Below, in pieces: positions 25,345 to 39,179 of a stretch of DNA of 64,000 bases. The stretch covers positions 2,704,367 to 2,768,366 of the forward strand of contig NZ_CP186274.1 of the NCBI RefSeq assembly GCF_049331405.1, in the 5' to 3' direction. Every line of letters starts with the position of its first letter. The stretch's first letter is position 1. The notes below the pieces were generated by a model that did not search any database, was not told the DNA's origin, and saw only the letters and a program-made list of their open reading frames with translations. The position numbers were made by a program, and so were the translations under genes. This DNA comes from Singulisphaera sp. PoT (GTDB lineage Bacteria > Planctomycetota > Planctomycetia > Isosphaerales > Isosphaeraceae).

Positions 25345-26751
25345 CTATTTGACCGTGACGGGGCCGATATCGGTCAACACAGTGACGGGGCCGTCGCGAC
25401 CGGCGATCGCCTTCGAGAATTCCGCCGGGCTGCGGACGGGCTTGCCCTCGACGGATCGGATCAACTGCCCCTGCTTGAGCCCGGCCTTCTCGGCGGGAGA
25501 GCCCGTCTCGACCTCGACGATGACCACTCCCCCCATGGAGAGGGCGCCGACGAAGTCGCCGCCGAGCATCCGCGTGGGCAGCGTGCTTGTAAAGTCGACC
25601 CGGGCGCCTCGCCAGGGCAGGGGACGGTTCGTGGCGATCACCTCGCCGTCGACCCTGAACTTGGCCAGCTCCACCGTGCGCTCGATCGTCTCGTTGCGGC
25701 GGCGGATCTTGAGCGGAATCTGAGTGCCGACCGGCACCGAGTTGATCGCCAGCACGAGGTCGTCGACGTCGTGCAGTTCCCTGTCGCCGACGGAGAGGAT
25801 CTGGTCATCGAGCAGGATGCCCCCCATCGCCGCGGGCGAACCCGGCTGGGCCTGGGTCACGCGGGTCGTCCTGGTCTGACGATCGAGGCCGATGCCGAGG
25901 TAGCCGTACTCGACTTCCTTCCCCTCGCGGAGCGCGTTGATGGCCCGCCGCCCCATGGCGTCGATCGGGATCGCGTAGCCGGCCAGGGCGTCGAACCCGG
26001 CGGCGTTGGCGCTGCTCGATGTCAGGCCGACCAGCTCTCCCTTCAGGTTGACGACCGCGCCGCCGCTCATGCCGAGGTTGAGCTTGGAGTCGAGCTGCAG
26101 GAGCGTCGGGTAATTCTTGAGCGAGAGGGGCTGCGTCTCGTCGAGCTGCTCGATCCGGCGTGCGATGTTCGAGAGGATCCCCCAACTCGCCGAGGGTCGC
26201 CCATCCCGGATCGCCGCGTTGAACGGGTTCCCGAGCGCCACGAGGAACGAGCCCTTGCGGAGCTTGGTGGCATCGCCGAGCGAAATCGGCGTGAACTTGA
26301 GGGCGCGGGCCGTCCTGACCTCGCGGGGCATGACCACCGCCAGGTCGCTCCTGGGGTCGGCGGCGATGATCTCGGCCTCGAATTCGGGGTTGCCGATCGA
26401 GCGGATGTGGATCCGGCTCGCCCCCTTGACCACGTGGAAGGCCGTGAGGATCTCTCCCTTGTCCCCGATCACCACGCCGGAGCCATAATCGAAGGTGAGC
26501 GTGTCGGGCCCGAACGGGTCGGACGGAGGCGCGGGATTCTTGCCGCGGATGGCCGTGGTCACGTCGTTCTCGGCCCGCTCCCGGGCGATCGCGACGACCG
26601 AGGGCTCCGCCTTGGCGATGGCGTCGGCCAGGGCCGTCTCCAGGGCCGTCGCGACGTCGATCGCCGCCGGTGGGGGGCTGGGTGCGGGGGCAGGTGCGGG
26701 ATTGTCGGCCCCGAGGACGAGGAGGCAGGCCAACGGGAGTATGTTCGGCAT
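25345..26751 (-). CDS. Periplasmic trypsin-like serine protease of the HtrA/DegP family with two PDZ domains
   Basis: Signal peptide; catalytic triad context (TAFHVV, DLAV, GMSGGAV); C-terminal PDZ segments. Confidence 0.9.
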   Translation of the reverse strand: MPNILPLACLLVLGADNPAPAPAPSPPPAAIDVATALETALADAIAKAEPSVVAIARERAENDVTTAIRGKNPAPPSDPFGPDTLTFDYGSGVVIGDKGEILTAFHVVKGASRIHIRSIGNPEFEAEIIAADPRSDLAVVMPREVRTARALKFTPISLGDATKLRKGSFLVALGNPFNAAIRDGRPSASWGILSNIARRIEQLDETQPLSLKNYPTLLQLDSKLNLGMSGGAVVNLKGELVGLTSSSANAAGFDALAGYAIPIDAMGRRAINALREGKEVEYGYLGIGLDRQTRTTRVTQAQPGSPAAMGGILLDDQILSVGDRELHDVDDLVLAINSVPVGTQIPLKIRRRNETIERTVELAKFRVDGEVIATNRPLPWRGARVDFTSTLPTRMLGGDFVGALSMGGVVIVEVETGSPAEKAGLKQGQLIRSVEGKPVRSPAEFSKAIAGRDGPVTVLTDIGPVTVK

Positions 26752-27173
26752 CAACGATCACCTCGCCCGGAGTCCGAGAGGCTCGACATTTCGAATGGAG
26801 AGCCCACTTCCTCTTGGGCATCCTCTAATTTATCTTTTCGAGTTCTCGGCGGTTGAGCAACCCAGGATTGCCCGAACCACGACCATTGTCGATGCCTCGG
26901 GCATGAGAAATCCCCCCCTGCAATGGTCGGTTGCAAAAGCGTCGAGCGGCAGTTGACTTCCCCAAGCCTCCATCGGATAGTGGATGCATTGGGTCATCGA
27001 GAAAGAGCTTCCGTGCTGCGATCGCGAGGCTTTTGATGCCGCTTTGGGGCTCGCATCGGCGGTAGCACTCCGCTCGGCGCAAGACGCGGCCCATGAGCGA
27101 GTCAGTCACCGTTCATTGGTTCAAGCCAACACATCACATGACGGCGATTTCACCCTCCAGGGAGATACCGGCG

Positions 27174-28022
27174 ATGCCGACGTTGCCCCAATCGATGGTC
27201 CTTGGGAGCGGACGGGCGAAGGCGTGGATCCTGTTCGTGGTGGGGGTCCTGTTCACCCTGTCCCTGATGCCGGCACCGGCCGCCCGGGCGCAAGAGCCCG
27301 CCAAGGACGAGGCGGCGAAGGCCGCCGCTGCGCCCGCCCCCGCCGCGGCGGGGAGCACAAGCGACGTCGCCCCCCCCAAGACCAAGTCGATGCTCCGCTG
27401 GGCGCTCGAGGCGTCGGGCCCCATCGGCGTCTTCCTGCTCTGCCTCTCGGTCTACTTCACCTCGGTCGTCATCAAGCTCTTCCTGGAGATGCGGGTGAGC
27501 GAGAACGTCCCGCCTGCGCTCGTCGAGAAGATGGAGGCGGCGATCCGCGACCGCAAGTTCCAGGAGCTCTACGACGCCTGCCGCGACAACGAATCGTTCC
27601 TGGCCAAGGTCGTCCGCACGGGCGTCGCCAACCTGCCCAACGGCCGCCCCGAGGCCAAGGAAGCCATGAACGCCGTGACCGACGAGATCGTCACCGGCAT
27701 GGAATCCAAGATCAGCTACCTCGCCATCATCGGGCAGCTCGGGCCGATGATCGGGCTGGTCGGCACGATCTGGGGCATGATCATGAGCTTCCAGGAAATC
27801 GCCACCGCCGCCGGCTCTCAGCCCAAGCCCGAGAAGGTGGCCGAGGGGATCTCGACGGCCCTCTTCATCACGCTCGAAGGGGTGGCCCTGGCCGTCCCGG
27901 CGATCTTCTTCTTCTCCTTCTTCCGGAACCGGATCGCGACGATCGCCATGGAGGTCACCAAGGTGGCCGACCGCACGATCGCCTCGCTGGTCCAGGCCGC
28001 CAAGCAGTCCAAGACCGTCTGA
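27174..28022 (+). CDS. MotA/TolQ/ExbB-family proton channel (cassette 1)
   Basis: Hallmark region GPMIGLVGTIWGMIMSF…EGISTALFITLEGVALAVPAIFFFSFFRNRI. The start is taken at an internal Met; the ORF extends to 27093. Confidence 0.9.
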   Translation: MPTLPQSMVLGSGRAKAWILFVVGVLFTLSLMPAPAARAQEPAKDEAAKAAAAPAPAAAGSTSDVAPPKTKSMLRWALEASGPIGVFLLCLSVYFTSVVIKLFLEMRVSENVPPALVEKMEAAIRDRKFQELYDACRDNESFLAKVVRTGVANLPNGRPEAKEAMNAVTDEIVTGMESKISYLAIIGQLGPMIGLVGTIWGMIMSFQEIATAAGSQPKPEKVAEGISTALFITLEGVALAVPAIFFFSFFRNRIATIAMEVTKVADRTIASLVQAAKQSKTV

Positions 28023-28076
28023 TCGGACCGGATCCGGACGGGCACAACGAGCAGGAAGTGGAGAGGAGACGCGACC

Positions 28077-28544
28077 ATGTCCGCCTCGATGAGTTCCGAG
28101 ATGTCGGCGGAGCCCAATCTCACCCCCTTGCTGGACGTCGTCTTCCAGTTGATCACGTTCTTCATGCTCGTGATCAACTTCAGCAACGAGAACTACGACC
28201 AGCGCATCAAGCTGCCGGTGGCGGGCTCGGCCCAGCCCACCGAAGATGGGCAGAAGGGGGTCGACGAAGACCGGCTGGTCCTCAACATCAGCAACCAGGG
28301 GCACCTCCTGGTCAACGGCAAGGACCTGCCGTCCGATAAGGCCGGCGCGGAGATCCGGCACCTGGCGGACCTCACCCGCCGCAACCTGGACGCGGCCGGG
28401 GTCAAGAAGTCTGCCGACCTGCCCACGACGATCATCCTCCGGGCCGACAAGGGCACCGAGTTCTCCGACCTGTACGCCCTGATCACGCAGTGCCAGGCCA
28501 ATGGCTTCCGCAAATTCGCCCTCAAGGCGATGAGCGGAGAATAA
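28077..28544 (+). CDS. ExbD/TolR-family protein (cassette 1, type a)
   Basis: N-terminus NLTPLLDVVFQLITFFMLVINF is the ExbD signature TM segment. Confidence 0.9.
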   Translation: MSASMSSEMSAEPNLTPLLDVVFQLITFFMLVINFSNENYDQRIKLPVAGSAQPTEDGQKGVDEDRLVLNISNQGHLLVNGKDLPSDKAGAEIRHLADLTRRNLDAAGVKKSADLPTTIILRADKGTEFSDLYALITQCQANGFRKFALKAMSGE

Positions 28545-28599
28545 TGACGCCGATCGGTTCCTCCCAGCGGATCCATTCAGCTTTGCGGGGGTTATTCTC

Positions 28600-29121
28600 T
28601 TGAGCCAGAATCGTGGCCGGAAGAAGAAAGCTCACACGAGCCTGGAAATCCCCGTCACGCCCATGCTCGACATGGCCTTCCAGTTGCTCACCTTCTTCAT
28701 CCTGACCTATCACCCGATGCCGTCCGAGGTCCAGTTCGTCATGAACCTGATGCCGGCGGCCCCCGCCACCGACATCAACGCCCAGCAGCCCGAGGCGGCC
28801 GAGGCCAATCCCGACCTCCCCGCCTCGCTCAAGACCCTGGAGACCACCTTGCGGGCCGGGGAAGGGGGCTCGCTCGGCCGGATCATCCTCGGTGAGAATG
28901 AGATCCAGGGGGGCCTCGACGCCCTGAAACGCGAGCTCGACGCCAACTTGACCGACCCGACCCTCCCCTTCGAGCAGACCCTGCTGAAGGTCGACCCCGA
29001 GCTCAAGTACGACGCCTTGATGAAGGTGATCGACGTCTTCTCCAAGGCCTTCTCAGACGCGAAGAAGGAGCCCAAGGTCGCCTTCGCCGAGCTGAGCGCC
29101 GAGGAGAAGGCCGCGCAGTGA
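28600..29121 (+). CDS. ExbD/TolR-family protein (cassette 1, type b)
   Basis: Signature segment IPVTPMLDMAFQLLTFFILTYHP. Confidence 0.9.
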   Translation: MSQNRGRKKKAHTSLEIPVTPMLDMAFQLLTFFILTYHPMPSEVQFVMNLMPAAPATDINAQQPEAAEANPDLPASLKTLETTLRAGEGGSLGRIILGENEIQGGLDALKRELDANLTDPTLPFEQTLLKVDPELKYDALMKVIDVFSKAFSDAKKEPKVAFAELSAEEKAAQ

Positions 29122-29200
29122 TCGCCCGGCAACCCTGCGGGATCGGGCCCTCGGGGCGTCGGGCAACGCCAACACGGAGCGTCCGGGGAAGAGGGCCGTC

Positions 29201-30097
29201 ATGAGCCAGTCGAACACGTTCTTCCGCGGGTCGGAGTTCCCGAGGCTCCTCGTCCTGCTCGCGATCCTCGTCGGCGGCTCGGCCCTGCTCTACGCCTACC
29301 TCTACGACCGCGACAAGGGGATCGACGGCGGCCCCGTGGCCACCGTCCCCCTCACGCCGATCGTGCCGGACAGGTCGACCGAGTTCGAGACGGTCGAGGA
29401 TAAGACCTCGATCGGCCTCCGCGACATGGCGGCCTACAAGAAGCTCCTGCAGCAGGCCGAGAAGCGCACGCCGGTCGAGCTCGACAAGGAGAGCCGACGC
29501 GACGTCCTCTCGATCCAGATCTGGGAGCATCCCAACAGCTACCGAGGCGTGCCCATCCACATCCTCGGCACCGTCCTCCGCGTCATGACCTACGAGAGCA
29601 AGCTCGTCCCCTCGGGCCGCCTGTACGAGGCCTGGATGGTGACCTCCGACAGCCAGCGCAACTTCTATGTCTGCGTCTTCGAGGACGCGCCGAAAGGGTT
29701 CCCGGTCGGCGACAACATCTCGGAGCGGGTGGTCTTCAACGGCTACTTCCTCAAGCTGATGAAGTACCAGTCGGGCAAGGACCTGGGCTACTACTCCTCG
29801 CCCGTCCTGATCGGCCGGATCGGCTGGAACGCCCCCACCAAGGCTCCCGCCGACAAAACGCCCGGCCCGGTGAAGTGGATGGCCGTCGCCGTGGCCCTGA
29901 TGTTCGTCCTCTCATTCTTCCGCTGGCTAGGGGGCCTGCGCAAGTCCTTCGCCCCGAGGTCGATCGCTTCGACCCTCCGCGAGCGCCCCACCGAAGAGAT
30001 CTCGCCCGAGGACCTCGCCGCCTGGGTCCAGAGCGTCCCGCAAGAGGAAGCCGAGATCGGCGAGGACGAGCCGCCTCGCCACGACGGCAAGGCCTGA
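29201..30097 (+). CDS. Conserved two-TM protein of unknown function that terminates the ExbB/ExbD cassette (paralog of 42464..43180)
   Basis: N-terminal TM (LLVLLAILVGGSALLYAYLY), periplasmic beta-rich domain with motif YEAWMVTSDSQRNFYVCVFED…FNGYFLKLMKYQSG, and a C-terminal TM. Confidence 0.7.
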   Translation: MSQSNTFFRGSEFPRLLVLLAILVGGSALLYAYLYDRDKGIDGGPVATVPLTPIVPDRSTEFETVEDKTSIGLRDMAAYKKLLQQAEKRTPVELDKESRRDVLSIQIWEHPNSYRGVPIHILGTVLRVMTYESKLVPSGRLYEAWMVTSDSQRNFYVCVFEDAPKGFPVGDNISERVVFNGYFLKLMKYQSGKDLGYYSSPVLIGRIGWNAPTKAPADKTPGPVKWMAVAVALMFVLSFFRWLGGLRKSFAPRSIASTLRERPTEEISPEDLAAWVQSVPQEEAEIGEDEPPRHDGKA

Positions 30098-30363
30098 TCG
30101 CCCGGCTTCCGCCCATCGAACCGCAAGCATTCCTTCCTGCATCGAACTTCGATCGACCGTAGACAGCTCGTTCGCGTCCCACAAATAACACACATGTCGA
30201 ACAAAAATATCATCAATTCTATCCATAAAGTCATAATTCTTTACGAACCGAAGTATTCAGCGATCTCCGGTATGACTTGGTCGCGCACTCCCTTCAAAGT
30301 CTGTGGATTTAATCCCAAGGATCGAATGCGAGGGTTTGGAAAAGCGGGGCGTTTCGCGGAGGC

Positions 30364-30392
30364 TTGACAGTGCGAGTGATCGGCCTTATGGT
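30364..30392 (+). promoter_or_regulatory. Sigma70-like promoter: TTGACA - 17 nt - TATGGT, ~55 nt upstream of the ATPase-SPFH start
   Basis: Read directly. A ~150-bp AT-rich block (30180..30330) lies just upstream. Confidence 0.5.
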
Positions 30393-30448: not shown

Positions 30449-33400
30449 ATGCACCGCGAATATCATCCCGCCGACATGCACCGACTGCGTGCGCACGCCT
30501 TCGAGGGAGAAGGCGGAGGGGAACCCGGCCGTCGCGAGGATCATCGGGGCCTCTATGCCCTGACGACCATCCTGGGGTTGCTGATCGGCGGGGACATCCT
30601 CTTCGCGTACCTCGGCCTGGAGTCCTGGAGGGCCCCGGCGGGCATCTCGCTGGTCAAGGCCGCCGCGATCCTGGGGGGGATCCGCATCGTCTACGGGGCC
30701 CTTGAGGCCCTCGCCCAGAAGCGCATCGGCGCCGATCTCGCGCTGGCCCAGGCGTGCATCGCCGCGTTGGTGATCGGCCAGCCGTTCGTCGCCGCCGAGG
30801 TCGTCTTCATCGCGTTGGTGGGGGAGGTCCTTGAGGCCCTCACCTTCGAGCGGACCCAACGCGCGATCCATCGCCTGCTCGATCAGGCCCCGCGCACGGC
30901 TCGAATACGCCGCGACGGCCGGGAGCACGAGATCGAGGCCCGGTATGTCGCCGAGGGGGACACGGTCATCGTCCGGCCCGGCGAGCGGATCCCGGTGGAC
31001 GGGCCGGTCCTCGTCGGGCGATCCTCCGTGGACCAGGCGGCGCTCACGGGGGAGTCGCACCCGGTCGACAAGGGGGTCGGAGACCCGGCCTTCTCGGGCA
31101 CGATCAACCAGTTCGGCGTCCTGGAGATCCGGGCGGAGAAGGTCGGCCACGAAACGACCCTGGGCCAGGTGTTGCGCCTGGTAGCCGAGGCGCAGCAGCG
31201 CAAGGCTCCGATCCAGAAGACGGCCGACCGGCTCGCCGGCTACTTCCTCCCGGTCGTCGAGAGTGTCGCCGCCCTGACGCTAATTTTCGGGTACCTCCTG
31301 CGCTGGCCCGACGTCTGGATGAGGACGGTCGCCGTGCTGGTGGTGGCCTGCCCGTGTGCCCTGGTCCTGGCCACGCCGGCCGCCATCCTCGCGAGCATGG
31401 CCTGGCTGGCGCGGCATGGCATCCTCATCAAGGGGGGCGAGGCGCTCGAACGGCTGGCCGCCTGCGACACGTTCGCGTTCGACAAGACCGGCACCCTGAC
31501 ACTGGGCCGGCCCGAGGTCACGAGCCTCGTCCCGCTCGACGGCTGGACCGAGGCCGAGATCCTGACCCTCGCCGCGATCGCCGAGTCGTCGAACCCGCAT
31601 CCGCTGGCCGTGGCGATCGTCGAGGAAGCCCGTCGGCGCGGCCTGAAACCGGGGACCGCCACCGAGGTCCTCGCCCAGCCCGGGGCGGGGGTCTCGTCCC
31701 GCTGCCAGCTCGACGCCGGGGGCTCGATCGCGGTCCTCGTGGGCAATCAGCGGCTCTTGAATGAACATGCGATCGAGATTTCAAACGAGGCGGCCGACGC
31801 CCTCCAGGCCCTCGACGCCCGCGGCGATACACCGCTTTTGGTCGCGGTCGAGGGGAAGCTCGCGGGCATCCTCGGGGCGCGCGACCGGATCCGCCCCGAG
31901 GCCCAGGGGGTCGTCTCCGAGCTGAAAGCCCTGGGCTTCCGCGAGGTCGCCATCCTGACCGGCGACCGCGCCGCGGCGGCCGAGGTCGTCGCCAGGAAGA
32001 CGCAGGCCACGAGCGTCGAGGCGGGCCTGCTCCCCGCCGACAAGGCGCACTGGGTCCAGGAACGTCAATCGGCCGGCAAGCGCGTGGCGATGGTCGGGGA
32101 TGGGATCAACGACGCCCCGGCGCTCGCGGGGGCCCACGTCGGGATCGCCCTCGGCGGGATCGGGGCCGACCTCGCGGCCGAGGCCGGCGACTTCGTCGTG
32201 CTCGGCGAACCCCTGGCCTGGCTCCCGGAACTCGTGCAGCTCTCGCGATCGACGGTCGCCGTCATCCGCCAGAACATCCTCATCTTTGCATTCACATTGA
32301 ACGCTGTTGCGATGGGGCTGGCCGCCCTGGGGATCCTGGGGCCGGTGCCGGCGGCGATCCTGCACCAGGCGGGGTCGCTGCTCGTCCTGCTGAACGCCAT
32401 GAGGCTCCTGGCGTTCGGGGAATGGAGACGACTCAGGCCCTTCCATCGGATCAACTCGCTCCTCGAATGGATGGCAAGGATCGACGACCGCCTCGATCCG
32501 ACGGATTACCTGGGTCGCCTGCTCTCGCACTGGCGAGGTTTCGTCGCCCTGATGGTTGCAGTGCTAATCGCCCTGGGCCTGACCTCGGGCTGGACGGCCA
32601 TAGGCCCTGGCGAGGTGGGGCTCGTCCAGCGGCAGGGGCGTTACTTGCGGGCGCTGGAGCCGGGACTCCACCTGCGCTGGCCCCCGCCGTTCGAGCGCGT
32701 GGTCCGGCTCCGGCCCGATCGGCTGAGGAGCCTCGAACTCGGCTTCCGCTCGAACGAAGGAGGCGACTCGGGGCCGGTGCGGTGGGAGTCGCGGCACGAC
32801 CGAGGCGCCGTCGCCCGAGCCGAGGACGAGTCCCTCCTGCTCACGGGCGATGGCCAGCTCGTCGAGCTCGCCGCGACGGCGCAGTACCGGCTCGATACAT
32901 CAAAGCCCGAGTCGCTGCGATCCTACGCCTTCGCCATCGCCGAGCCCGACCGCGCATTGCGTCCTCTCGGCGAATCGGCGATCCGCGCGGTCGTGGGGCG
33001 TCTGACGCTCAACGATTTGCTGACCACGGGGCGACAATCCGCCGAGAAATCGGCCGTGAGCTTGCTCCAGGAGCGGGCGGATCGCTACGGCATGGGGCTG
33101 TTCATCGCGGGGGTCGAATTCCAGGATGTTCATCCCCCGCTGCCGGTGGTGGACGCCTACCGCGACGTCTCCCGGGCCGAGAGCGAACGGGCCAAGCGCG
33201 ACAACGACGGCAAGGCCTACGAGGCCAAGGTCGTCGCCGAGGCCCAAGGCCGTGCCGACGCACTCCGCAACCAGGCCCTCGCCGCGATGTCTTCGCGTGT
33301 GACCCGTGCAGACGCGGAGTCGAGCACCTTCCTCGACCTGCTCTCCGCTCGTTCGACGGCCCCCGCGCTGACCGACCTCCGGCTCTATTGGGAGCGGATC

Positions 33401-33553
33401 GAGGAGTCGCTCGCTGGCAAGTCGAAGGTCGTCACGGAGCCCGACTCCACCGGCCGACGGATCCGGATGATCCCCGACCTCCCCTTCGAGGGCCGGGCCC
33501 TCGCCCCCGAGCCTAATCCCACCCCCGACCCCTCGGCTCGGAGAACGCCATGA
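30449..33553 (+). CDS. P1B-type heavy-metal-translocating P-type ATPase fused in-frame to a C-terminal transmembrane helix plus SPFH/band-7 (HflK-like) domain
   Basis: ATPase motifs: TGES (actuator), CPC in TM6 (VACPCALVLATP), DKTGTLT, GDGINDAPAL, and a TM8 HQAGSLLVLLNAMRLL. After residue ~640 comes a new TM (FVALMVAVLIALGL) and an HflK-type SPFH domain (GPGEVGLVQRQGRYLRALEPGLHLRWPPPFERVV…). There is no N-terminal CxxC HMA domain; the N-terminus is His-rich. Confidence 0.85.
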   Translation: MHREYHPADMHRLRAHAFEGEGGGEPGRREDHRGLYALTTILGLLIGGDILFAYLGLESWRAPAGISLVKAAAILGGIRIVYGALEALAQKRIGADLALAQACIAALVIGQPFVAAEVVFIALVGEVLEALTFERTQRAIHRLLDQAPRTARIRRDGREHEIEARYVAEGDTVIVRPGERIPVDGPVLVGRSSVDQAALTGESHPVDKGVGDPAFSGTINQFGVLEIRAEKVGHETTLGQVLRLVAEAQQRKAPIQKTADRLAGYFLPVVESVAALTLIFGYLLRWPDVWMRTVAVLVVACPCALVLATPAAILASMAWLARHGILIKGGEALERLAACDTFAFDKTGTLTLGRPEVTSLVPLDGWTEAEILTLAAIAESSNPHPLAVAIVEEARRRGLKPGTATEVLAQPGAGVSSRCQLDAGGSIAVLVGNQRLLNEHAIEISNEAADALQALDARGDTPLLVAVEGKLAGILGARDRIRPEAQGVVSELKALGFREVAILTGDRAAAAEVVARKTQATSVEAGLLPADKAHWVQERQSAGKRVAMVGDGINDAPALAGAHVGIALGGIGADLAAEAGDFVVLGEPLAWLPELVQLSRSTVAVIRQNILIFAFTLNAVAMGLAALGILGPVPAAILHQAGSLLVLLNAMRLLAFGEWRRLRPFHRINSLLEWMARIDDRLDPTDYLGRLLSHWRGFVALMVAVLIALGLTSGWTAIGPGEVGLVQRQGRYLRALEPGLHLRWPPPFERVVRLRPDRLRSLELGFRSNEGGDSGPVRWESRHDRGAVARAEDESLLLTGDGQLVELAATAQYRLDTSKPESLRSYAFAIAEPDRALRPLGESAIRAVVGRLTLNDLLTTGRQSAEKSAVSLLQERADRYGMGLFIAGVEFQDVHPPLPVVDAYRDVSRAESERAKRDNDGKAYEAKVVAEAQGRADALRNQALAAMSSRVTRADAESSTFLDLLSARSTAPALTDLRLYWERIEESLAGKSKVVTEPDSTGRRIRMIPDLPFEGRALAPEPNPTPDPSARRTP

Positions 33554-33873
33554 ACGCGATCGCCCCGGCCATCCGCCTGCGATTCACCCTGGCCCAGTTG
33601 CTGTCCCTGGTCATCCTGAGCACCCTCTGCATGGCCCCGCTGATGGCCTCGCTCAAGTCGGGGAAGGGAATGCTCATCCTCGCGGCCGTCACGCTCGACG
33701 TCTTCATCGCCCCGATGATCGAGACGGTCATCGTGATGGCCTATGTCCGCTCGCCCGAGCGTCGCGATTGGATCGTCCGAGCAATCTGGGTGATCCCCGC
33801 GCTGTTCGTGGGGGCCTTCCTGACCGTCCTGGTTCCGATCCTGCTGTTCGTCAACGACCCGTTCTCGCGCTGA
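33550..33873 (+). CDS. Small polytopic membrane protein (107 aa), translationally coupled (ATGA) to the ATPase-SPFH gene
   Basis: Three predicted TM helices. Its start codon overlaps the upstream stop codon. Confidence 0.5.
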   Translation: MNAIAPAIRLRFTLAQLLSLVILSTLCMAPLMASLKSGKGMLILAAVTLDVFIAPMIETVIVMAYVRSPERRDWIVRAIWVIPALFVGAFLTVLVPILLFVNDPFSR

Positions 33874-33927
33874 GGTTTGCCTCGCGAGCCGCAACAGAAT
33901 CTGTCGAGCTTCCCCGAGACCTCCGCA

Positions 33928-34881
33928 ATGACACGCCCCTTCCGCTGGCTGACTGCCCTCATCGTGCTCGGCCTCGTCGCGCTCTTCGGTTTCCGAGGTT
34001 GGGTCATCGTCGACGAGACCGAGTACGCGGTGATCACCGACTTCGGCCGGATCGTGAAGGTCTACGGGGCGGAGCCGGGGTTGCACGCCAAATGGCCCTG
34101 GCAGTCGGTGGAGACCATCGACCGCCGACTCCAGGTGTTCGACCCGCCCCCTCGCGAGATGATCACGGGGGATAAGCGGAACCTCGAGGTCTCCAGCTAC
34201 GTCGTCTGGCGCGTGGCCGACGCCGTCCGCTTCCTACGCTCGGCGGCGACCCTCGAGACGGCGGAAGCCCGCCTCAACGAGCGGGTGACCGCCGCACTGA
34301 GTCATGCGGTAGGGAGCCGCGAACTCCGGACGCTCGCCTCCACCGATCCAAAGGTCTGGAAGCTCGACGCGATCACCGAGGAGGTCCGCACGAGCATCGC
34401 CCCGGGCGCCCGCGAGGAACTCGGGGTCGAGGTCGTCGACGTGAGGCTCCGTCGCTTCAACCATCCGACGGAAGTCCGGCCCGCGATCTTCGAGCTGATC
34501 AGGAGCGAGCGGAAGCAGGTCGCGGCGAGCCTCCGGGCCGAGGGCGAGGCCCGCTACCTCTCCCTCACGAGCCAGGCCGACCGCCAGCGCGACACCATCC
34601 TCGCCGAGGCCGAGGCGGAGGCCGAGCGGATCAGGGGCCAGGCCGAATCCGAGTCGACCCGGATCTACAACAAGGCCCACTCCCAGGACCCGAAGTTCTA
34701 CGAGTTCGTGCGGACGCTCGAGTCGTACCGGGCCTTACTCGACGAAAAGGCTACCGTCGTCCTCTCGTCCGCGAGTCCGCTGCTCCGGCTCCTGACTCAA
34801 GGGCCCTCCGAGGACCTACTCCGGGGTCCCGCCCGCGATAAGGCGGCGGTGACGCCCTCGCCGACTGAGACAAAGCCATGA
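33928..34881 (+). CDS. SPFH/band-7 protein, HflC-like
   Basis: N-terminal TM, then VIVDETEYAVITDFGRIVKVYGAEPGLHAKWPWQSVETIDRRLQVFD (HflC signature) and a coiled-coil tail. A TTG alternative start lies at 33877, directly after the upstream stop. Confidence 0.85.
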   Translation: MTRPFRWLTALIVLGLVALFGFRGWVIVDETEYAVITDFGRIVKVYGAEPGLHAKWPWQSVETIDRRLQVFDPPPREMITGDKRNLEVSSYVVWRVADAVRFLRSAATLETAEARLNERVTAALSHAVGSRELRTLASTDPKVWKLDAITEEVRTSIAPGAREELGVEVVDVRLRRFNHPTEVRPAIFELIRSERKQVAASLRAEGEARYLSLTSQADRQRDTILAEAEAEAERIRGQAESESTRIYNKAHSQDPKFYEFVRTLESYRALLDEKATVVLSSASPLLRLLTQGPSEDLLRGPARDKAAVTPSPTETKP

Positions 34882-35789
34882 GCCGGAACGTATTCCGCTG
34901 GCTCCTCGCGTCATTCGTCCTGGCGGCGATCGCCTACGGGCTGTCGGGGGTCGTCGTGGTCGCCCCCGGCGAGGTGGCCGTGGTCCGCAGGTTCGGCCGG
35001 GCGCTGGCGAGGCCCTTGCCGCCGGGTCCGCACTGGTTGCTCCCCGCGTGGATCGACCGGATCACGCGAGTCCGCACCGACACCGTGCGACGGCTCGAAG
35101 TCGGGCTCGTCGGCACGCCGGGGCCCGACGCCCTCGCCGACGACGGAGAATACATCACCGGCGACCTGAACATGCTGCGTGCGTCTGGCGTCGTGCAGTA
35201 CCGGGTATCCGACCCCATCGCGTTCACCCTCCGAGCCAAAGAGCTCGAACCGATCCTCACGCGGTTGATCGAATCGACCTTGAGCCGATCCCTGGCGCGA
35301 GTGTCCATCGACCTCGCGCTCCGGTCGGGCCGGGCCGAGATCGCCCGCGAGATGGAAGGGGAGCTCTCCCAGGCCGCCGCACGCTATGGCCTGGGGATCT
35401 CGATCCTGGGCGTGAGCCTCACCGAGGCCCGGCCCCCCGTCGAGGTCGCGCCCGACTTCGCCTCGGCCCAAGCCGCCCAGAGCGAACGCGACGGCCGGAT
35501 CCGCGAGGCCCAGACTTACGAGGCGACGGCTTTGACAGGTGCCAGGGCCTCGGCCCTGGCCACGAAGGAGAAGGCCAAATCACGGGCCGACCGCTCGCTC
35601 GCACTGGCGAAGGCCCGCGCAGCCCGTTTCGAGACGCTGCTGGCCGAGGCCTCGGGCTGGAGGCGATTGACGATCCGTCGGCTCTACCTCGACACCTTGC
35701 GAGAGCTCTGGCCGAAGGCCAAGCGCAAGATCATCACGAGCCCCGACGAGCCGGTCGACCTCAGCATCCTCGACGACACTCGTCAGTAA
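34878..35789 (+). CDS. SPFH/band-7 protein, HflK-like; start overlaps the HflC-like stop (ATGA)
   Basis: N-terminal TM, then VVAPGEVAVVRRFGRALARPLPPGPHWLLPAWIDRITRVRTD and a coiled-coil C-terminus. Confidence 0.85.
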   Translation: MSRNVFRWLLASFVLAAIAYGLSGVVVVAPGEVAVVRRFGRALARPLPPGPHWLLPAWIDRITRVRTDTVRRLEVGLVGTPGPDALADDGEYITGDLNMLRASGVVQYRVSDPIAFTLRAKELEPILTRLIESTLSRSLARVSIDLALRSGRAEIAREMEGELSQAAARYGLGISILGVSLTEARPPVEVAPDFASAQAAQSERDGRIREAQTYEATALTGARASALATKEKAKSRADRSLALAKARAARFETLLAEASGWRRLTIRRLYLDTLRELWPKAKRKIITSPDEPVDLSILDDTRQ

Positions 35790-36767: not shown

Positions 36768-38852
36768 TCATACGACCTGCTTGGAGGAGACATCCAGATC
36801 GACCCTGTGGGTTTGCTTCCGCTTCCGCTCGACCCGATCCTCGCGGCACCTCCAGAGCTGCCAGATCCCGATCACGACGCCGAGCGAGAGGGCGGGCCTG
36901 GCGGCCTTCGTCGCCTCGGGGTCCTCGCCGCTCGACGGGGCCGGGGGCGGGACCTCCATCGGCTGATCGGGGGTGGCCGGGAGCGTCCCGGGCGCCTGTC
37001 CCGCCTCGGGGACGACGGGGGCCTTGTCCCGCTTGGAGTCGAGAGTCTGCCCGGCCTTCAGGTCGGCCTTGCCGGGGTCGGCCTTGCCGGGGTCGGCCTT
37101 CGGGGTCGCGGCCTTCGCGTGGGCGTTCGTCCCCGTCGTCGCCTGCGTGCGGTCCGCCTTGCGACGGTTCACGACCGACCGGGCGAGCGGCTGGTCCTCG
37201 GTGGCCGACCGGAGGAAGAGCGTCCCGCGCGGCTCGGGGAGCGACTGCCCGAGCGAGGCGCCCGCGATGGTCGACTCCGACGTGCTGGTCGCCGAGGCGG
37301 TCGTCGTGCTGGTGCTCGTGCTGGAGTTCGTCTCAGTGGTCGAGGTGGGGACCACCGTGAAGACCGCCGTGGACTGGCTCGCGGTCGTGGTGGTGGTTGT
37401 GGTCGTCGTGGTCGTGCTGGTCGAGGTCGAGGTCGAGGTCGGCGTCGTGAACTGGCGGGGGCCGGGGCCGTGAGGCCCGCTATGGGGCGGAGGCTGCGTC
37501 GGGCCGTCGTGCGTCGAGCCCGAGCTGCCAGAGCTACCGGAAGACGTCGTGCCGGTGGTCGTGGTGGTCGTCGTGGTGGCGGAGGCCAGGAACGTGGCAA
37601 GGCTGCTGGCCTTGGGACTGCCAAGGCCGGTGACGAGGTCGTAGCCGCGGCCGGCCTGGTAGTACGCGTTGTAGCCGGTGGTGATGTCGTTGAAGTAGGT
37701 CGACGGGGTCGACTGATACTCGGTCGCGGCCTTGCTGTAGAGCAGGCTCAGCGTGTCCTGCGAGTCGAGCGAGGAGAGCCCGGAGAGGGACCGACCCTGG
37801 TCGGCGATCGCGACGAGGGCCGACCATTGCGGGGCCCCGGCGCTGGTGCCGCCGACCTCGAACCAGCCCGACTGGCCGGACACGCCCAGCGAGTCATACA
37901 CGGCGTAGCCGTTGGTGGCGCTGGCGTCGTACGAGACGTCGGGGGTCGAACGCGCCGGGAGTTGGTTGCCGAAGACCGACGTCTGATAGCTCGGGGTCGA
38001 CTCGTACTGACTGAGCCCGCCGCCGCTGCCTTGCGAGTAGTAGCCGCTCCAGGCGGTCTCACCCTGGTAGGTGCCGGTGGTCGAGGCGGAGAGCGTGGTG
38101 CCGCCGACGCTGACGACGTTGGGCGAGGCCGCGGGCCACTCGGCCCCCGAGATGCCCCCCGAGTCGCCCGAGGAGGCCACGAAGGTGACGCCGGGGACGT
38201 TGAAAAGGGAGTCGAGCGAGGTCTCGCCCAAGAATTCGCCGGTTCCCCAGCTCATCGAGACGACGTTCGCCTGGGTGGAGGCGTACTTCACCGCGGCCGT
38301 CAGGTCGCTCAGGCTGCTGGAATTCGCCTCGACGAGCAGGATCTTGGCGCCAGGGGCCATCGCGTGGGCCCACTCGACGTCGAGCGAGATTTCCAGGGCC
38401 CAGCCGGCGTCGGTGGCCGGGAGCGAGGTCGTGCTGCCGGACTGGTTCACGACGGTCAGGCTGGCGGAGGGGAGGTTGTACTGGCTGTCGAACTTCGCGA
38501 GGTCGGCGGCGATGTTCGGGTCGTTGTAGGCGTCGACGATGGCGATGGTCTCGCCGGTGCCGTCCCCCTTGACCGATTTCGTTCCCGAGTTGAATACGAT
38601 CTGGCTGAAGCCGTATGCTTGGCTCACCTGGCTCGGGGTCAGGCTCCCGGCGACCGGGCTCGAGACGACCGTCGTCCCCGTGGAGCCGAGGCCGCTGCGG
38701 TCGGCCGCGACCGACGGGGCCACCACGATATCGCTGAGGGATGTGAGGAGATGACGAGACTCCATCGACTCGACCCGAGGAACGTTCCCCCTCCGTGTCC
38801 GCGTGCGGACGGAGGCGCACCCGCGCCCTCCCTGCGTCTTCGTTCGGCGCAT
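36768..38852 (-). CDS. Secreted sedolisin/subtilase-type (S8/S53) serine peptidase with a long Thr/Ser-rich linker and a C-terminal membrane anchor
   Basis: N-terminal ESMESRHLLTS motif (as commonly described for planctomycete secreted proteins); catalytic Ser motif GGTSAGAPQWSAL; Asp box IAIVDAYNDP; poly-Thr stretch of >60 residues; C-terminal TM ALSLGVVIGIWQLW. Start approximate; the ORF extends to 39044. Confidence 0.8.
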   Translation of the reverse strand: MRRTKTQGGRGCASVRTRTRRGNVPRVESMESRHLLTSLSDIVVAPSVAADRSGLGSTGTTVVSSPVAGSLTPSQVSQAYGFSQIVFNSGTKSVKGDGTGETIAIVDAYNDPNIAADLAKFDSQYNLPSASLTVVNQSGSTTSLPATDAGWALEISLDVEWAHAMAPGAKILLVEANSSSLSDLTAAVKYASTQANVVSMSWGTGEFLGETSLDSLFNVPGVTFVASSGDSGGISGAEWPAASPNVVSVGGTTLSASTTGTYQGETAWSGYYSQGSGGGLSQYESTPSYQTSVFGNQLPARSTPDVSYDASATNGYAVYDSLGVSGQSGWFEVGGTSAGAPQWSALVAIADQGRSLSGLSSLDSQDTLSLLYSKAATEYQSTPSTYFNDITTGYNAYYQAGRGYDLVTGLGSPKASSLATFLASATTTTTTTTGTTSSGSSGSSGSTHDGPTQPPPHSGPHGPGPRQFTTPTSTSTSTSTTTTTTTTTTTASQSTAVFTVVPTSTTETNSSTSTSTTTASATSTSESTIAGASLGQSLPEPRGTLFLRSATEDQPLARSVVNRRKADRTQATTGTNAHAKAATPKADPGKADPGKADLKAGQTLDSKRDKAPVVPEAGQAPGTLPATPDQPMEVPPPAPSSGEDPEATKAARPALSLGVVIGIWQLWRCREDRVERKRKQTHRVDLDVSSKQVV
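37250..37620 (-). repeat. Low-complexity ACC/ACG/AGC codon repeat encoding the poly-Thr/Ser linker of the peptidase
   Basis: Read directly; it generates spurious ORFs on the opposite strand. Confidence 0.7.
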
Positions 38853-39179
38853 GGCAGACCCTTGTTGTCGTTCTGGTGATGCGTGACTCGGCGGCCGGAC
38901 ACCGCGAATCGCATTCGCGGCTGCTAATCCGACCGAAGGCCAGCCGATCCTCGCGACGGGGGGGGGTCGAGGAAACGGTGCGACATGAATGCACCCATAC
39001 GTCGGGTGCATTCCAAGGTTAGCCCGCTCTCGAAGGTTATTCAAGGAGAAGTTCGGGGTGGCTATGACGAATGCCGTAAAGTTTCCTTAACCCCGAGAGC
39101 GGTCACGAGTGCCGATATAGGCCCCCATCGATGAACGTCCAACGGGACCCTTGACATCCAATTTCGAGGACATGATCTG

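What the first reader, a model, noticed from the sequence alone, without database searches (positions are those of the whole stretch)
30449..35789. Heavy-metal P-type ATPase fused to an SPFH (HflK-like) domain, co-operonic with HflC- and HflK-like genes
A single 1034-aa ORF has every P1B-ATPase hallmark (TGES, CPC in TM6, DKTGT, GDGIND). It then continues through an extra TM helix into a ~390-aa band-7/SPFH domain of the HflK type. A 107-aa polytopic membrane protein, an HflC-like gene and a second HflK-like gene follow immediately, with overlapping stop/start codons (ATGA twice) that imply coupled translation. HflK/HflC are known to form large periplasm-facing cages that enclose FtsH. Here the same scaffold appears to be covalently attached to a metal pump. 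That suggests the transporter sits inside or is gated by an SPFH microdomain or cage. I have not seen this architecture described. The ATPase lacks an N-terminal CxxC HMA domain and has a His-rich N-terminus and a HQAGS TM8 motif, so its metal specificity is open.
Basis: partly seen in the sequence, partly recalled or inferred. Interest (0 to 1): 0.85.

Follow-up and report, generated by a model that had tools for sequence, protein, structure and literature searches.

The report
Metal pump fused to HflK cage subunit
A complete heavy-metal export pump is built into one subunit of an HflK/HflC-type membrane cage, and in other phyla an unrelated metal exporter is fused to the same cage subunit; this gives a natural system for working out what these poorly understood cages do.

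Summary
Window 30449-33553 (+) is one 1034-aa gene (100% identical to a Singulisphaera sp. PoT protein). It encodes a full P1B-type ATPase, a ~40-aa linker, a ninth TM helix and a periplasmic HflK-type SPFH domain. A 107-aa membrane protein, an HflC-like gene and a free HflK-like gene follow.

It is not a frameshift artefact. At least 120 protein clusters and about 85 50%-identity representatives share the architecture, across Planctomycetota, Armatimonadota/Fervidibacter, Acidobacteriota, Verrucomicrobiota, Zipacnadia and Elusimicrobiota.

The main new result is a second fusion. In Eisenbacteria, Zixibacteria, Gemmatimonadota, Nitrospiraceae, an Altiarchaeota MAG and an Aquibium plasmid, the orthologous SPFH subunit carries a cation-diffusion-facilitator (CDF) membrane domain instead, in the same SPFH1-HflC-HflK2 operon. 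Both fused lineages share a periplasmic W-(E/N)-x-x-H insertion that HflK2 and canonical HflK lack.

Best reading: a dedicated HflK/C-type assembly with divalent-metal exporters tethered to its rim. Cage assembly, the metal and any FtsH involvement are inferred, not shown.

The closest described analogue is the unfused, zinc-limitation-induced HmtA + three-SPFH locus of P. aeruginosa; orthology could not be tested. I found no paper describing either fusion. Pipelines name the proteins only "P-type ATPase" or "HflK".

The parts
30364..30392 (+). Promoter-like site: TTGACA, 17 nt, TATGGT, about 57 nt upstream of the start codon
   Evidence: 10 of 12 consensus matches; 2 sites found against 0.3 expected in shuffles. 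The element is conserved in two related genomes, L082 and L083. Function not tested.
30449..33553 (+). Fusion gene, 1034 aa: P1B-type ATPase + linker + extra TM helix + HflK-type SPFH domain (called SPFH1 here)
   Evidence: AlphaFold2 model with mean pLDDT 78.
30449..30538 (+). N-terminal His-rich cytoplasmic peptide (aa 1-30, MHREYHPADMHRLRAHAF...); no HMA domain
   Evidence: M1 H2 R3 E4 P7 D9 conserved in >=90% of 54 homologs; pLDDT <50; no PF00403 hit.
30539..32413 (+). P1B-ATPase core (aa 31-655): eight TM helices plus A, P and N domains; TGES, CPC, DKTGT, HP, GDGIND; M5 Asn618; M6 HQAGS
   Evidence: TIGR01525 562 bits; motif positions; Foldseek top hits are CopA, ZntA and sCoaT; all catalytic motifs invariant in 54 homologs.
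32414..32530 (+). Cytoplasmic linker (aa 656-694) with two short helices
   Evidence: AF2 helices 665-679 and 684-692, pLDDT 54-68; G657 and D679 invariant, W659 P664 R666 D680 D683 in >=90%.
32531..32593 (+). Ninth (extra) TM helix, aa ~695-715, which carries the chain to the periplasmic side
   Evidence: Hydropathy peak at 697-715; AF2 helix 695-712; aligns with the single N-terminal TM helix of E. coli HflK.
32594..33550 (+). Periplasmic HflK-type domain (aa 716-1034): SPFH fold, one long helix 898-968, helix 972-988, C-terminal strand region
   Evidence: Band_7 3.6e-21; TIGR01933 159.9 bits; best PDB sequence match is E. coli HflK 7vhp_E, 2.9e-27, extending through the C-terminal 'KVxV...' strand.
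32750..32830 (+). SPFH1-specific periplasmic insertion (aa 768-794) holding the motif PVRWESRHDRGAVARAED (W779, E780, H783)
   Evidence: The motif A-Y-[EQ]-W-[EN]-x-x-H-x-x-G-x-Y is in 37/44 ATPase-fused and 24/26 CDF-fused SPFH1 domains and in 0/60 HflK2. It is absent from E. coli and Azospirillum HflK. Disordered in the model.
33550..33873 (+). 107-aa small polytopic membrane protein; a lineage-specific insert, not a core component
   Evidence: GC3 0.92 in frame; homolog at 42% identity, E 1e-27, in the same position in L082; absent in L083 and Tundrisphaera L001; no blastp hit in 81 loci; no Pfam or NCBIfam family.
33877..34881 (+). HflC-like SPFH protein (334 aa from TTG 33877, or 317 aa from ATG 33928), with an N-terminal TM helix
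   Evidence: TIGR01932 184 bits, cut-off 134; E. coli HflC 7vhp_G 3.5e-35; groups with canonical HflC in the tree.
34878..35789 (+). Free HflK-like paralog (HflK2, 303 aa) with an N-terminal TM helix; its start overlaps the HflC stop (ATGA)
   Evidence: TIGR01933 148.5 bits, cut-off 159.4; E. coli HflK 1.8e-25; 31% identical to the fused SPFH1; forms its own clade across all phyla.

Best explanation
The operon encodes a dedicated three-component HflK/HflC-type SPFH assembly (SPFH1, HflC-like, HflK2). Its SPFH1 subunit carries a complete, catalytically intact transition-metal exporter where canonical HflK has a disordered cytoplasmic N-terminal tail. SHOWN: the gene is one conserved reading frame. 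The ATPase has every catalytic and metal-site motif under conservation. It has eight TM helices, and a ninth helix places the SPFH domain on the side opposite the ATP-binding domains, that is, in the periplasm, as in HflK. The partner genes are HflC- and HflK-family and are co-inherited with SPFH1. In sister lineages the same SPFH1 orthogroup is fused to a CDF exporter instead. INFERRED by analogy with the E. coli 12 HflK + 12 HflC cage: SPFH1 and HflK2 share the HflK positions alternating with HflC, so several pumps hang on short (~40 aa) flexible tethers at the membrane rim of a periplasm-facing dome. P1B-ATPases and CDFs both move metal from cytoplasm to periplasm. The assembly would therefore concentrate metal efflux at or into the membrane patch and periplasmic chamber bounded by the cage. 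This could hand metal to periplasmic acceptors or keep it from diffusing away. The conserved W-(E/N)-x-x-H loop of SPFH1 is a candidate periplasmic metal-receiving or pump-docking site. The metal is most likely a divalent ion (Zn2+, Co2+ or Fe2+ class) rather than Cu+.
For: One frame, conserved. Domains and motifs. Topology: 8+1 helices in the AF2 model and by hydropathy. HflK, HflC and HflK identities against solved E. coli structures; family tree. Operon conserved in 51 ATPase-type loci of GTDB species from five or more phyla and in independent gene calls. CDF (PF01545, E 1e-21 to 1e-27) fused to the same SPFH1 orthogroup in 28 loci with the same HflC + HflK2 partners. The SPFH1 and HflK2 clades each span all phyla and their trees mirror each other. 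A fusion-specific periplasmic motif is absent from HflK2 and canonical HflK. Both transporter types have lost their cytosolic regulatory metal-binding domain: no HMA in any of 120 fused homologs, while most unfused relatives have it; and there is no ZT_dimer hit and no room for a CDF C-terminal domain. Divalent-metal hints: M5-M6 aligns best with the P1B-4 pump sCoaT (8.8e-7, against ZntA 0.024 and CopA >=0.16); there is no YN/MxxSS or K/DxG signature; the CDF fusions have HxxxD + HxxxD sites, which are the Zn-type quartet by established CDF classification. Metal context elsewhere: FeoB upstream in 6 loci; the Aquibium plasmid locus sits beside CopA, PCuAC and SCO; P. aeruginosa HmtA and three adjacent SPFH genes rise together under Zn depletion. 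Cage facts (24 subunits, unstructured HflK N-terminus): PMC13220708.
Against: No assembly, stoichiometry or localisation was or could be tested here. The AF2 linker is low-confidence, so it is unknown whether the pump lies inside or outside the ring. Twelve ATPase headpieces may not fit inside a ~20-nm ring (own estimate), which is only compatible if HflK2 dilutes SPFH1 or the pumps sit outside. No metal-responsive regulator, riboswitch or operator was found next to the operon. Some Fervidibacter lineages have the fusion without HflK2 or HflC within 8 kb. The metal assignment rests on motif similarity only: TM4 is CPC rather than the P1B-4 SPC, and the M6 Glu is Gln. The trees are neighbour-joining without support values.
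Confidence: 0.5

Rival explanations
1. FtsH-adaptor model. The fused HflK domain, with HflC and HflK2, recruits the pump into a canonical FtsH-HflK/C protease complex, so that pump abundance is controlled by regulated proteolysis. Alternatively, these genes are simply the organism's housekeeping HflK/C.
For: SPFH1 reaches the HflK equivalog cut-off and scores higher against a canonical alphaproteobacterial HflK (169 bits) than against HflK2 (106 bits). FtsH binds only through HflK (PMC13220708). The equivalents of E. coli HflK R141 and R185 are Arg in SPFH1. FtsH is known to degrade membrane transporters (established knowledge).
Against: No ftsH-like ORF in the window or in any of 91 related loci. 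E142 is not conserved, and the contact region carries a family-specific insertion. P. aeruginosa keeps a canonical hflKC as well as its three-SPFH operon. Fusing a substrate permanently to its protease adaptor, twice and with two exporter families, is hard to explain as turnover control. Whether Singulisphaera has another hflKC is unknown.
Confidence: 0.2
2. Local-regulator or scaffold model. The SPFH domain acts on its own pump, as stomatin acts on ion channels, or as an oligomerisation or lipid-microdomain anchor. It would replace the lost HMA or CDF C-terminal regulatory domains, and no enclosed chamber would matter.
For: Both transporter classes lost their cytosolic regulatory or dimerisation domains on fusion. 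Some lineages carry the fusion without nearby HflC or HflK2. SPFH proteins are widely described as microdomain organisers (PMC13086221).
Against: HflC-like and HflK2 partners are co-inherited with SPFH1 in nearly all loci with enough flank. SPFH1 retains the long wall helix and the C-terminal strand region that align with the cage-forming parts of E. coli HflK.
Confidence: 0.2
3. Importer model. The ATPase works like P. aeruginosa HmtA, which is reported to import Zn and Cu, and the periplasmic cage captures scarce metal for uptake.
For: HmtA and the adjacent three SPFH genes are induced by zinc depletion. HmtA over-expression raises cellular Zn and Cu.
Against: The sister fusions use CDF transporters, which export from the cytoplasm by established mechanism. 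Unfused relatives look like detoxification exporters; one sits behind a CsoR/RcnR-type repressor. A review says the HmtA import claim needs confirmation (PMC10393844). Orthology to HmtA was not testable.
Confidence: 0.08
4. Artefact. A missed stop codon, frameshift or mis-assembly joins two separate genes.
For: Several long-read MAG loci show broken versions of the gene (L003, L004, L010, L043, L058).
Against: 37 uninterrupted fusion ORFs occur in independent species genomes, and >=120 clusters have all three Pfam domains. The linker has conserved residues. The coding GC3 signal is continuous. Complete genomes carry the fusion (Tundrisphaera; Fervidibacter sacchari, L034).
Confidence: 0.01

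Closest known systems
E. coli HflK/HflC-FtsH complex (PDB 7VHP, 7WI3, 9CZ2, 9PAW)
   Same: SPFH1 and HflK2 match HflK, and the middle gene matches HflC, from the N-terminal TM helix through the SPFH fold, the long helix and the C-terminal strand region. Topology is periplasm-facing. The genes are adjacent and translationally coupled.
   Different: There are three SPFH genes, not two. The disordered cytoplasmic N-tail of HflK is replaced by a whole metal pump. SPFH1 has a W-(E/N)-x-x-H insertion. There is no hfq-hflX synteny and no ftsH nearby. FtsH-contact residues are only partly kept.
P. aeruginosa PA2435 (HmtA) + PA2437-PA2439 (PaFlo5-6-7) locus
   Same: According to the literature, a P1B-ATPase lies beside an operon of exactly three SPFH (HflC/HflK-family) genes, with a small hypothetical gene (PA2436) between them. 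The locus is distinct from canonical hflKC, patchily distributed, and induced together under Zn depletion.
   Different: The genes are unfused. No Pseudomonas sequence could be obtained, so orthology of the ATPase and the SPFH genes is untested. The 2026 SPFH paper does not link the operon to HmtA or zinc.
CDF-SPFH fusions found here (e.g. Aquibium oceanicum plasmid WP_072608301.1, L089; Zixibacteria L050)
   Same: Same SPFH1 orthogroup, same HflC + HflK2 partners, same extra-TM topology and the same periplasmic motif.
   Different: The N-terminal exporter is a six-TM CDF domain with an HD-HD site and no C-terminal cytoplasmic domain, driven by proton antiport rather than ATP (established knowledge). 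Databases name these proteins only 'FtsH protease activity modulator HflK'.
P1B-4 ATPases (sCoaT 7QBZ; CzcP/CtpD-type Zn/Co/Cd/Fe pumps)
   Same: Best match of the M5-M6 metal-site helices (HQAGSLLVLLNAMRLLAF against HEGSTLVVVANALRLLAF). No HMA domain.
   Different: TM4 is CPC rather than SPC. The M6 Glu is Gln in most fused members (Glu in a subset). The C-terminal extension is unique.
Stomatin/NfeD and stomatin-channel systems
   Same: An SPFH protein is functionally paired with a specific membrane partner (PMC2636767; own knowledge for stomatin-ASIC).
   Different: Those partners are separate polypeptides, the SPFH proteins are of stomatin type and cytoplasm-facing, and no metal transporter is involved.

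Membership tests
P1B-type (heavy-metal) P-type ATPase | Curated family model score above cut-off (TIGR01525) | tested here: met
   562.3 bits against a cut-off of 346.25, residues 98-653.
P1B-type (heavy-metal) P-type ATPase | Catalytic motifs DKTGT, TGES, GDGxNDxP and the HP dipeptide of the N-domain | tested here: met
   Positions 345-349, 200-203, 550-557 and 384-385; invariant in 54 homologs.
P1B-type (heavy-metal) P-type ATPase | CPx motif in the fourth core TM helix and an eight-TM topology | tested here: met
   CPC 301-303; eight helices in the AF2 model; structural match to CopA 7r0g, TM-score 0.74-0.76 on the target.
P1B-type (heavy-metal) P-type ATPase | N-terminal HMA (CxxC) metal-binding domain (common but not obligatory) | tested here: not met
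   No PF00403 hit; absent from all 120 fused homologs.
P1B-1 (Cu+/Ag+) subgroup | YN in M5 and MxxSS in M6 (classification recalled from Arguello 2003 and Smith 2014; own knowledge) | tested here: not met
   M5 is FTLN and M6 is HQAGS; M5-M6 match to CopA has E >=0.16.
P1B-2 (Zn2+/Cd2+/Pb2+) subgroup | Lys in M5 and DxG in M6 | tested here: not met
   No Lys and no DxG; ZntA M5-M6 match has E 0.024.
P1B-4 (Co2+/Zn2+/Cd2+/Fe2+) subgroup | SPC in TM4 and HEGxT in M6 | tested here: inconclusive
   M6 HQAGS aligns with HEGST of sCoaT (8.8e-7), but TM4 is CPC and the Glu is Gln; a subset of fused members has HE.
HflK (FtsH modulator) family | Equivalog model TIGR01933 above cut-off | tested here: inconclusive
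   Fused SPFH1 scores 159.9 against a cut-off of 159.4 (barely met); free HflK2 scores 148.5 (below). Both sit among HflK sequences in the tree.
HflK (FtsH modulator) family | N-in single TM helix followed by a periplasmic SPFH domain, a long helix and a C-terminal strand | tested here: met
   Alignment to 7vhp_E from the TM helix to residue 353; AF2 secondary structure; topology follows from 8+1 TM helices.
HflK (FtsH modulator) family | Adjacent, co-transcribed hflC partner | tested here: met
   TIGR01932 184 bits against a cut-off of 134.4; conserved downstream in the related loci.
HflK (FtsH modulator) family | Binds FtsH through periplasmic residues (E. coli R141, E142, R185) | tested here: inconclusive
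   SPFH1 has R, S, R and HflK2 has R, R, T at the aligned positions; no ftsH in 92 sources; binding itself is not testable here.
HflK (FtsH modulator) family | Forms a ~24-subunit alternating HflK/HflC cage | not testable with these tools
   Only monomer prediction is available; needs multimer modelling or cryo-EM.
P. aeruginosa HmtA/PaFlo5-7-type locus | P1B-ATPase next to three SPFH genes distinct from canonical hflKC | tested here: met
   The window has one ATPase and three SPFH domains in one operon; the Pseudomonas arrangement comes from papers.
P. aeruginosa HmtA/PaFlo5-7-type locus | Sequence orthology of the ATPase and SPFH proteins | not testable with these tools
   No Pseudomonas sequence was retrievable.
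P. aeruginosa HmtA/PaFlo5-7-type locus | Zur or zinc-limitation control | not tested
   No expression data. Only a sigma-70-like promoter was found; the region was not scanned for Zur or Fur boxes, and no regulator gene is adjacent.

The most novel reading that the evidence does not exclude
The SPFH1-HflC-HflK2 assembly is an FtsH-independent periplasmic 'metal chamber'. It would be a cage whose own subunits carry the pumps (P1B-ATPase or CDF) that fill its enclosed lumen with a divalent metal. Exported proteins could then be metallated, or metal handed on, in a confined space, with the W-(E/N)-x-x-H loops lining the exit. This would be the first SPFH cage with a defined, covalently attached client and a defined small-molecule cargo. 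It would also explain the zinc-limitation-induced HmtA/PaFlo5-7 locus of P. aeruginosa.
Probability: 0.25. Interest if true: 0.92.

Novelty: new variant of a known kind. Interest (0 to 1): 0.8.

Why it matters
What SPFH cages (HflK/C, prohibitin, stomatin, flotillin, erlin) enclose, and why, is a long-standing open question. Their clients are usually inferred from weak or indirect interactions. Here evolution has fused a client to the cage subunit, and has done so with two unrelated metal-exporter families on the same SPFH orthogroup. That is strong 'Rosetta-stone' evidence for a physical and functional coupling between this cage type and transition-metal efflux.

It gives structural biologists a complex in which client position and stoichiometry can be read directly. 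It gives metal-homeostasis researchers a new class of P1B and CDF transporters that have swapped their cytosolic regulatory domains for a periplasmic scaffold. It also offers a concrete hypothesis for the uncharacterised three-SPFH operon next to HmtA in P. aeruginosa.

On the practical side, hundreds of database entries named only 'HflK' or 'Cu+-exporting ATPase' hide half of their architecture.

Tried and rejected
1. Regulatory RNA. An Rfam scan of the whole window found only a SAM riboswitch far upstream and nothing near the operon.

2. Conserved metal regulator. Neighbourhoods of eight or more fused loci with Pfam labels show no shared regulator. Clustering of 1448 flanking ORFs gave only lineage-specific synteny, a conserved fourth gene of unknown family, and FeoB.

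3. Unfused ATPase + SPFH operons as fusion precursors. The nearest apparently unfused hits are partial proteins cut at contig ends (P0203, P0192). True unfused relatives with the HQ signature mostly carry HMA and are not next to Band_7 genes.

4. P. aeruginosa HmtA/PaFlo5-7 sequences. tblastn against plasmids with the fusion, with HflC-like queries and with the Aquibium proteins found no Pseudomonas record. The profile search returned none. The Lewinson 2009 paper is not held.

6. Foldseek of the whole model returns only P-type ATPases and adds nothing on the SPFH part.

8. The 107-aa ORF as a core subunit: rejected. It is absent from Tundrisphaera and from the closest relative L083, and has no hit in 81 loci. 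It is nevertheless a real gene.

9. Cu+ specificity, as the JGI names 'Cu+-exporting ATPase' imply: rejected on the M5/M6 signature.

Full report
**1. The observation**

The window (GC 0.63-0.70) holds a 1034-aa ORF at 30449..33553 on the + strand.
- Pfam finds E1-E2_ATPase (147-323, 5.9e-55), Hydrolase (340-562) and Band_7/SPFH (718-926, 3.6e-21) in the one protein.
- NCBIfam gives the heavy-metal P-type ATPase model TIGR01525 at 562 bits (cut-off 346). It gives the HflK equivalog TIGR01933 at 159.9 bits (cut-off 159.4) on residues 717-1000.
There is no HMA domain.
- Downstream lie a 107-aa ORF (33550..33873), an HflC-like gene (33877..34881; TIGR01932 184 bits, cut-off 134) and a second HflK-like gene (34878..35789; TIGR01933 148.5 bits).
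- The two ATGA stop/start overlaps are at 33550-33553 and 34878-34881.
- Against solved structures, the fused SPFH part and the free paralog both match E. coli HflK best (2.9e-27 and 1.8e-25). The middle gene matches E. coli HflC (3.5e-35).

The description is therefore accurate. Minor corrections concern the length of the SPFH part (~320 aa after the extra helix) and a possible later ATG start for HflC (33928).

**2. Not an artefact**

- The protein is 100% identical to an NCBI protein of Singulisphaera sp. PoT (P0001).
- The 120 best clusters in a 5.8-billion-protein search all carry the three Pfam domains at 56-77% identity.
- In an alignment of 54 of them, the catalytic residues, the CPC, Asn618 and H639-Q640-x-G642-S643 are invariant. 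The linker has its own conserved residues (G657, D679; W659, P664, R666, D680, D683 in >=90%).
- Third-position GC stays coding-like across the junction.
- An exhaustive HMMER search of 1.84 billion representatives found about 85 full-length fused representatives, down to 33% identity. Named members come from Planctomycetota, Ca. Fervidibacterota and Elusimicrobiota.

**3. Anatomy**

The AlphaFold2 model (mean pLDDT 78) shows, in order:
- the eight TM helices and the A, P and N domains of a P1B pump; Foldseek's best hits are CopA, ZntA and sCoaT;
- a low-confidence linker with two short helices (665-679, 684-692);
- a ninth TM helix (695-712);
- the SPFH alpha/beta domain, one long helix (898-968), a shorter helix (972-988) and a disordered tail.

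Eight helices leave the C-terminus of the pump in the cytoplasm. The ninth helix therefore puts the SPFH domain in the periplasm, which is the topology of HflK. In effect, the pump replaces the unstructured cytoplasmic N-tail of HflK (that tail is described in PMC13220708).

A conserved sigma-70-like promoter (TTGACA, 17 nt, TATGGT, 30364-30392) precedes the gene. Rfam finds no riboswitch there.

**4. Related loci**

A scan of one genome per GTDB species, using the TM6-linker-SPFH segment, returned 80 loci. Local blastp of the window proteins against their ORFs gave three groups.

- 51 loci are of ATPase type, 37 of them with an uninterrupted fusion ORF of ~970-1145 aa. The rest are cut by contig ends or broken by frameshifts. 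Where flank exists, the fusion is almost always followed by an HflC-like gene and then an HflK2-like gene. These loci come from Isosphaeraceae, Gemmatales, Planctomycetia, Armatimonadota/Fervidibacter, Acidobacteriota, Verrucomicrobiota and Zipacnadia.
- 28 loci have the same three-gene SPFH operon, but the first protein is only ~560-640 aa and has no ATPase.
- One locus (L069) is a plain HflK-like/HflC-like pair.

Pfam shows that the N-terminal part in the second class is a complete Cation_efflux (CDF) membrane domain (E 1e-21 to 1e-27) fused to Band_7. These loci come from Eisenbacteria, Zixibacteria, Gemmatimonadota, Nitrospiraceae and Tritonobacter.

A homolog search with one such protein found that nearly all of 120 clusters carry both domains, including one from an Altiarchaeota archaeon. 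Sources name them only 'FtsH protease activity modulator HflK' or 'membrane protease subunit HflK'. Independent gene calls confirm CDF-SPFH + Band_7 + Band_7, with a two-gene form in the archaeal MAG.

A cultured example exists. The conjugative plasmid of Aquibium oceanicum B7 encodes CDF-SPFH (515 aa, annotated hflK), HflC and a second HflK. A periplasmic PPIase, a CopA-type ATPase, PCuAC and SCO follow. It is the only such plasmid in PLSDB.

**5. Relationships among the SPFH proteins**

In neighbour-joining trees (no support values), the fused paralog (SPFH1) and the free paralog (HflK2) form separate clades, each spanning all the phyla. The ATPase-fused SPFH1s form one clade next to the CDF-fused ones, and the HflK2 tree mirrors the SPFH1 tree.

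With canonical sequences added, the middle gene groups with E. coli and Azospirillum HflC. Both SPFH1 and HflK2 sit within the HflK family. The window's SPFH1 scores higher against Azospirillum HflK (169 bits) than against its own HflK2 (106 bits).

SPFH1 carries an insertion with the motif A-Y-(E/Q)-W-(E/N)-x-x-H-x-x-G-x-Y (window: PVRWESRHDRGAVARAED, W779, H783).
- It is present in 37 of 44 ATPase-fused and 24 of 26 CDF-fused SPFH1 domains.
- It is present in none of 60 HflK2 proteins.
- It is absent from E. coli and Azospirillum HflK and from the unfused L069 protein.

So the motif tracks the presence of a fused exporter.

**6. Which metal**

- Overall, the ATPase is about equally distant from CopA, sCoaT and ZntA.
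- The metal-site helices M5-M6 align best with the P1B-4 Zn/Cd/Co pump sCoaT (8.8e-7), less well with ZntA (0.024), and worst with CopA (>=0.16).
- The family signature is CPC / N / H-(Q or E)-x-x-S. It has neither the Cu+ (YN, MxxSS) nor the Zn/Cd (K, DxG) residues.
- The CDF fusions have HxxxD in both site helices, which is the Zn-type quartet by established CDF classification.
- Unfused relatives with the HQ signature mostly keep an HMA domain and are not beside SPFH genes. One sits behind a CsoR/RcnR-type repressor, as expected for an ordinary detoxification exporter.
- Both transporter classes have lost their cytosolic regulatory domain in the fused state: HMA in the ATPase, the C-terminal domain in the CDF.
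- FeoB lies directly upstream of the CDF-SPFH operon in six loci.

I therefore favour a divalent metal (Zn2+, Co2+ or Fe2+ class). This is inference from motifs and context.

**7. Mechanism**

Established: E. coli HflK/C forms a 24-subunit (12+12) periplasm-facing cage. FtsH binds only through HflK (PMC13220708).

Inferred: SPFH1 and HflK2 occupy the HflK positions alternating with the HflC-like subunit, so pumps are tethered by ~40-residue flexible linkers at the rim of the assembly. P1B-ATPases and CDFs both export from the cytoplasm, so the assembly would focus metal efflux at or into the cage-bounded membrane patch and periplasmic chamber. The W-(E/N)-x-x-H loop is a candidate receiving or docking site. 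The free HflK2 may dilute the bulky pump-bearing subunit.

Rivals:
- The fused HflK domain is an FtsH adaptor for pump turnover. Two of three FtsH-contact residues are kept. However, no ftsH lies in 92 sources, and P. aeruginosa keeps a canonical hflKC as well.
- The SPFH domain is only a local regulator or scaffold.
- The pump is an importer like HmtA. The CDF sister fusions argue against this.
- The fusion is an artefact. This is refuted.

**8. What is known**

I found no paper describing a P-type ATPase-SPFH or CDF-SPFH fusion in the held library.

The closest published system is in P. aeruginosa. HmtA (PA2435) lies beside PA2437-PA2439 (HflC, HflC and HflK family). All are induced in a znuA mutant and more abundant under Zn depletion. 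A 2026 study describes the same three genes as the PaFlo5-6-7 operon. That operon is distinct from hflKC, patchily distributed, and gives mild phenotypes. The study does not mention HmtA or zinc. The composition (one P1B-ATPase, a small gene, three SPFH genes) parallels the window closely, but I could not obtain Pseudomonas sequences, so homology is untested.

**9. The 107-aa gene and other accessories**

The 107-aa ORF has strong coding GC3 (0.92) and a 42%-identical homolog at the same place in a related genome. It is missing from the closest relative L083, from Tundrisphaera and from all other loci. It is a real but lineage-specific insert.

Fervidibacter operons carry other inserts at the same kind of position: 23S_rRNA_IVP proteins, HEPN + nucleotidyltransferase pairs and a PD-(D/E)XK protein.

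A different ~155-aa membrane-anchored protein with no Pfam family follows HflK2 in 13 loci from four phyla.

**10. Verdict**

The architecture is real, ancient and widespread, and it is paralleled by an independent fusion of another metal-exporter family to the same cage subunit. The components are known families, so I rate it a new variant of a known kind. It has high interest because it provides a covalent client for an SPFH cage and links these cages to metal handling. Assembly state, metal identity and FtsH involvement remain to be shown.

Noticed in passing
L037:7224-8930, L041:7197-8960, L050:7170-8984, L074:7173-9089, L056:7191-8936, L032:3521-5344, L089:5427-6974 and about 20 more loci: A CDF (Cation_efflux) membrane domain is fused to the orthologous HflK-type SPFH protein, followed by HflC-like and HflK2-like genes. 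It occurs in Eisenbacteria, Zixibacteria, Gemmatimonadota, Nitrospiraceae, an Altiarchaeota MAG and an Aquibium plasmid. Databases call these proteins just 'HflK'.
   Followed up: yes
L008:11242-11709, L016:6006-6482, L057:11704-12297 and 10 other loci: A conserved fourth gene lies directly after HflK2 on the same strand. It encodes ~150-190 aa with an N-terminal TM helix and the motifs Y(L/M)DCFxGxLR and PYG(T/K)PV. It has no Pfam family and occurs in Acidobacteriota, Armatimonadota/Fervidibacter, some Planctomycetota and Zipacnadia, but not in the window.
   Followed up: partly
L056:5315-7072; also L047, L052, L054, L060, L075: A FeoB ferrous-iron transporter gene lies directly upstream, on the same strand, of the CDF-SPFH operon in six loci.
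   Followed up: partly
L016:4280-4750, L021:10236-10688, L018:5011-5878, L031:1864-2722, L040:3397-3807: Small accessory or selfish genes are inserted between genes of the SPFH operon in hot-spring Armatimonadota/Fervidibacter and one unclassified MAG. Pfam confirmed 23S_rRNA_IVP proteins (L016, L021), a HEPN + nucleotidyltransferase pair (L018) and a PD-(D/E)XK protein (L040); the L031 pair was called by eye only.
   Followed up: yes
L034 (Ca. Fervidibacter sacchari PD1, complete genome), L022, L035, L045, L046, L055: Some Fervidibacter-type genomes have the ATPase-SPFH fusion with no HflK2, and in L022 and L034 no HflC-like gene either, within 8 kb. Four of these six loci (L035, L045, L046, L055) also failed the W-x-x-x-H motif search.
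   Followed up: no
window 30170-30260: There is a strikingly AT-rich stretch in the intergenic region upstream of the operon promoter, in a 67% GC genome. It includes a second, weaker promoter-like site (30185-30213). It is not conserved in the related genomes aligned.
   Followed up: partly
window 22140-22275 (-): A SAM riboswitch (RF00162, 77 bits) lies upstream of the minus-strand gene at about 20677-22014.
   Followed up: no
window 22453-30097: AlaRS, an HtrA-like protease (Trypsin_2 + two PDZ), ExbB, two ExbD genes and a 298-aa protein of unknown family lie upstream. They are in the same order in the two closest genomes (L082, L083) but not in Tundrisphaera, so this is synteny rather than part of the system.
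   Followed up: yes
window 36768-39044 (-): A 757-aa protein has long Thr/Ser-rich low-complexity runs (a poly-Thr stretch) and no Pfam hit.
   Followed up: partly
L050:7170-8984 against protein P0320: The deposited annotation of the Zixibacteria SM23_81 MAG calls only a 333-aa 'hypothetical protein' for this locus and misses the CDF half of the continuous ORF.
   Followed up: no
plasmid hits H102-H104 and H106 (Vibrio spp.): On several Vibrio plasmids the annotated hflC lies immediately next to nhaA (a Na+/H+ antiporter). This is another SPFH gene beside a cation transporter.
   Followed up: no
P0174 (1301 aa), P0131, P0146, P0177 (1143-1218 aa): Some fused representatives are much longer, with large insertions in the SPFH part or extra N-terminal sequence. 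A sub-clade has HE instead of HQ in M6 plus a second LATP(S/C)AV motif.
   Followed up: no
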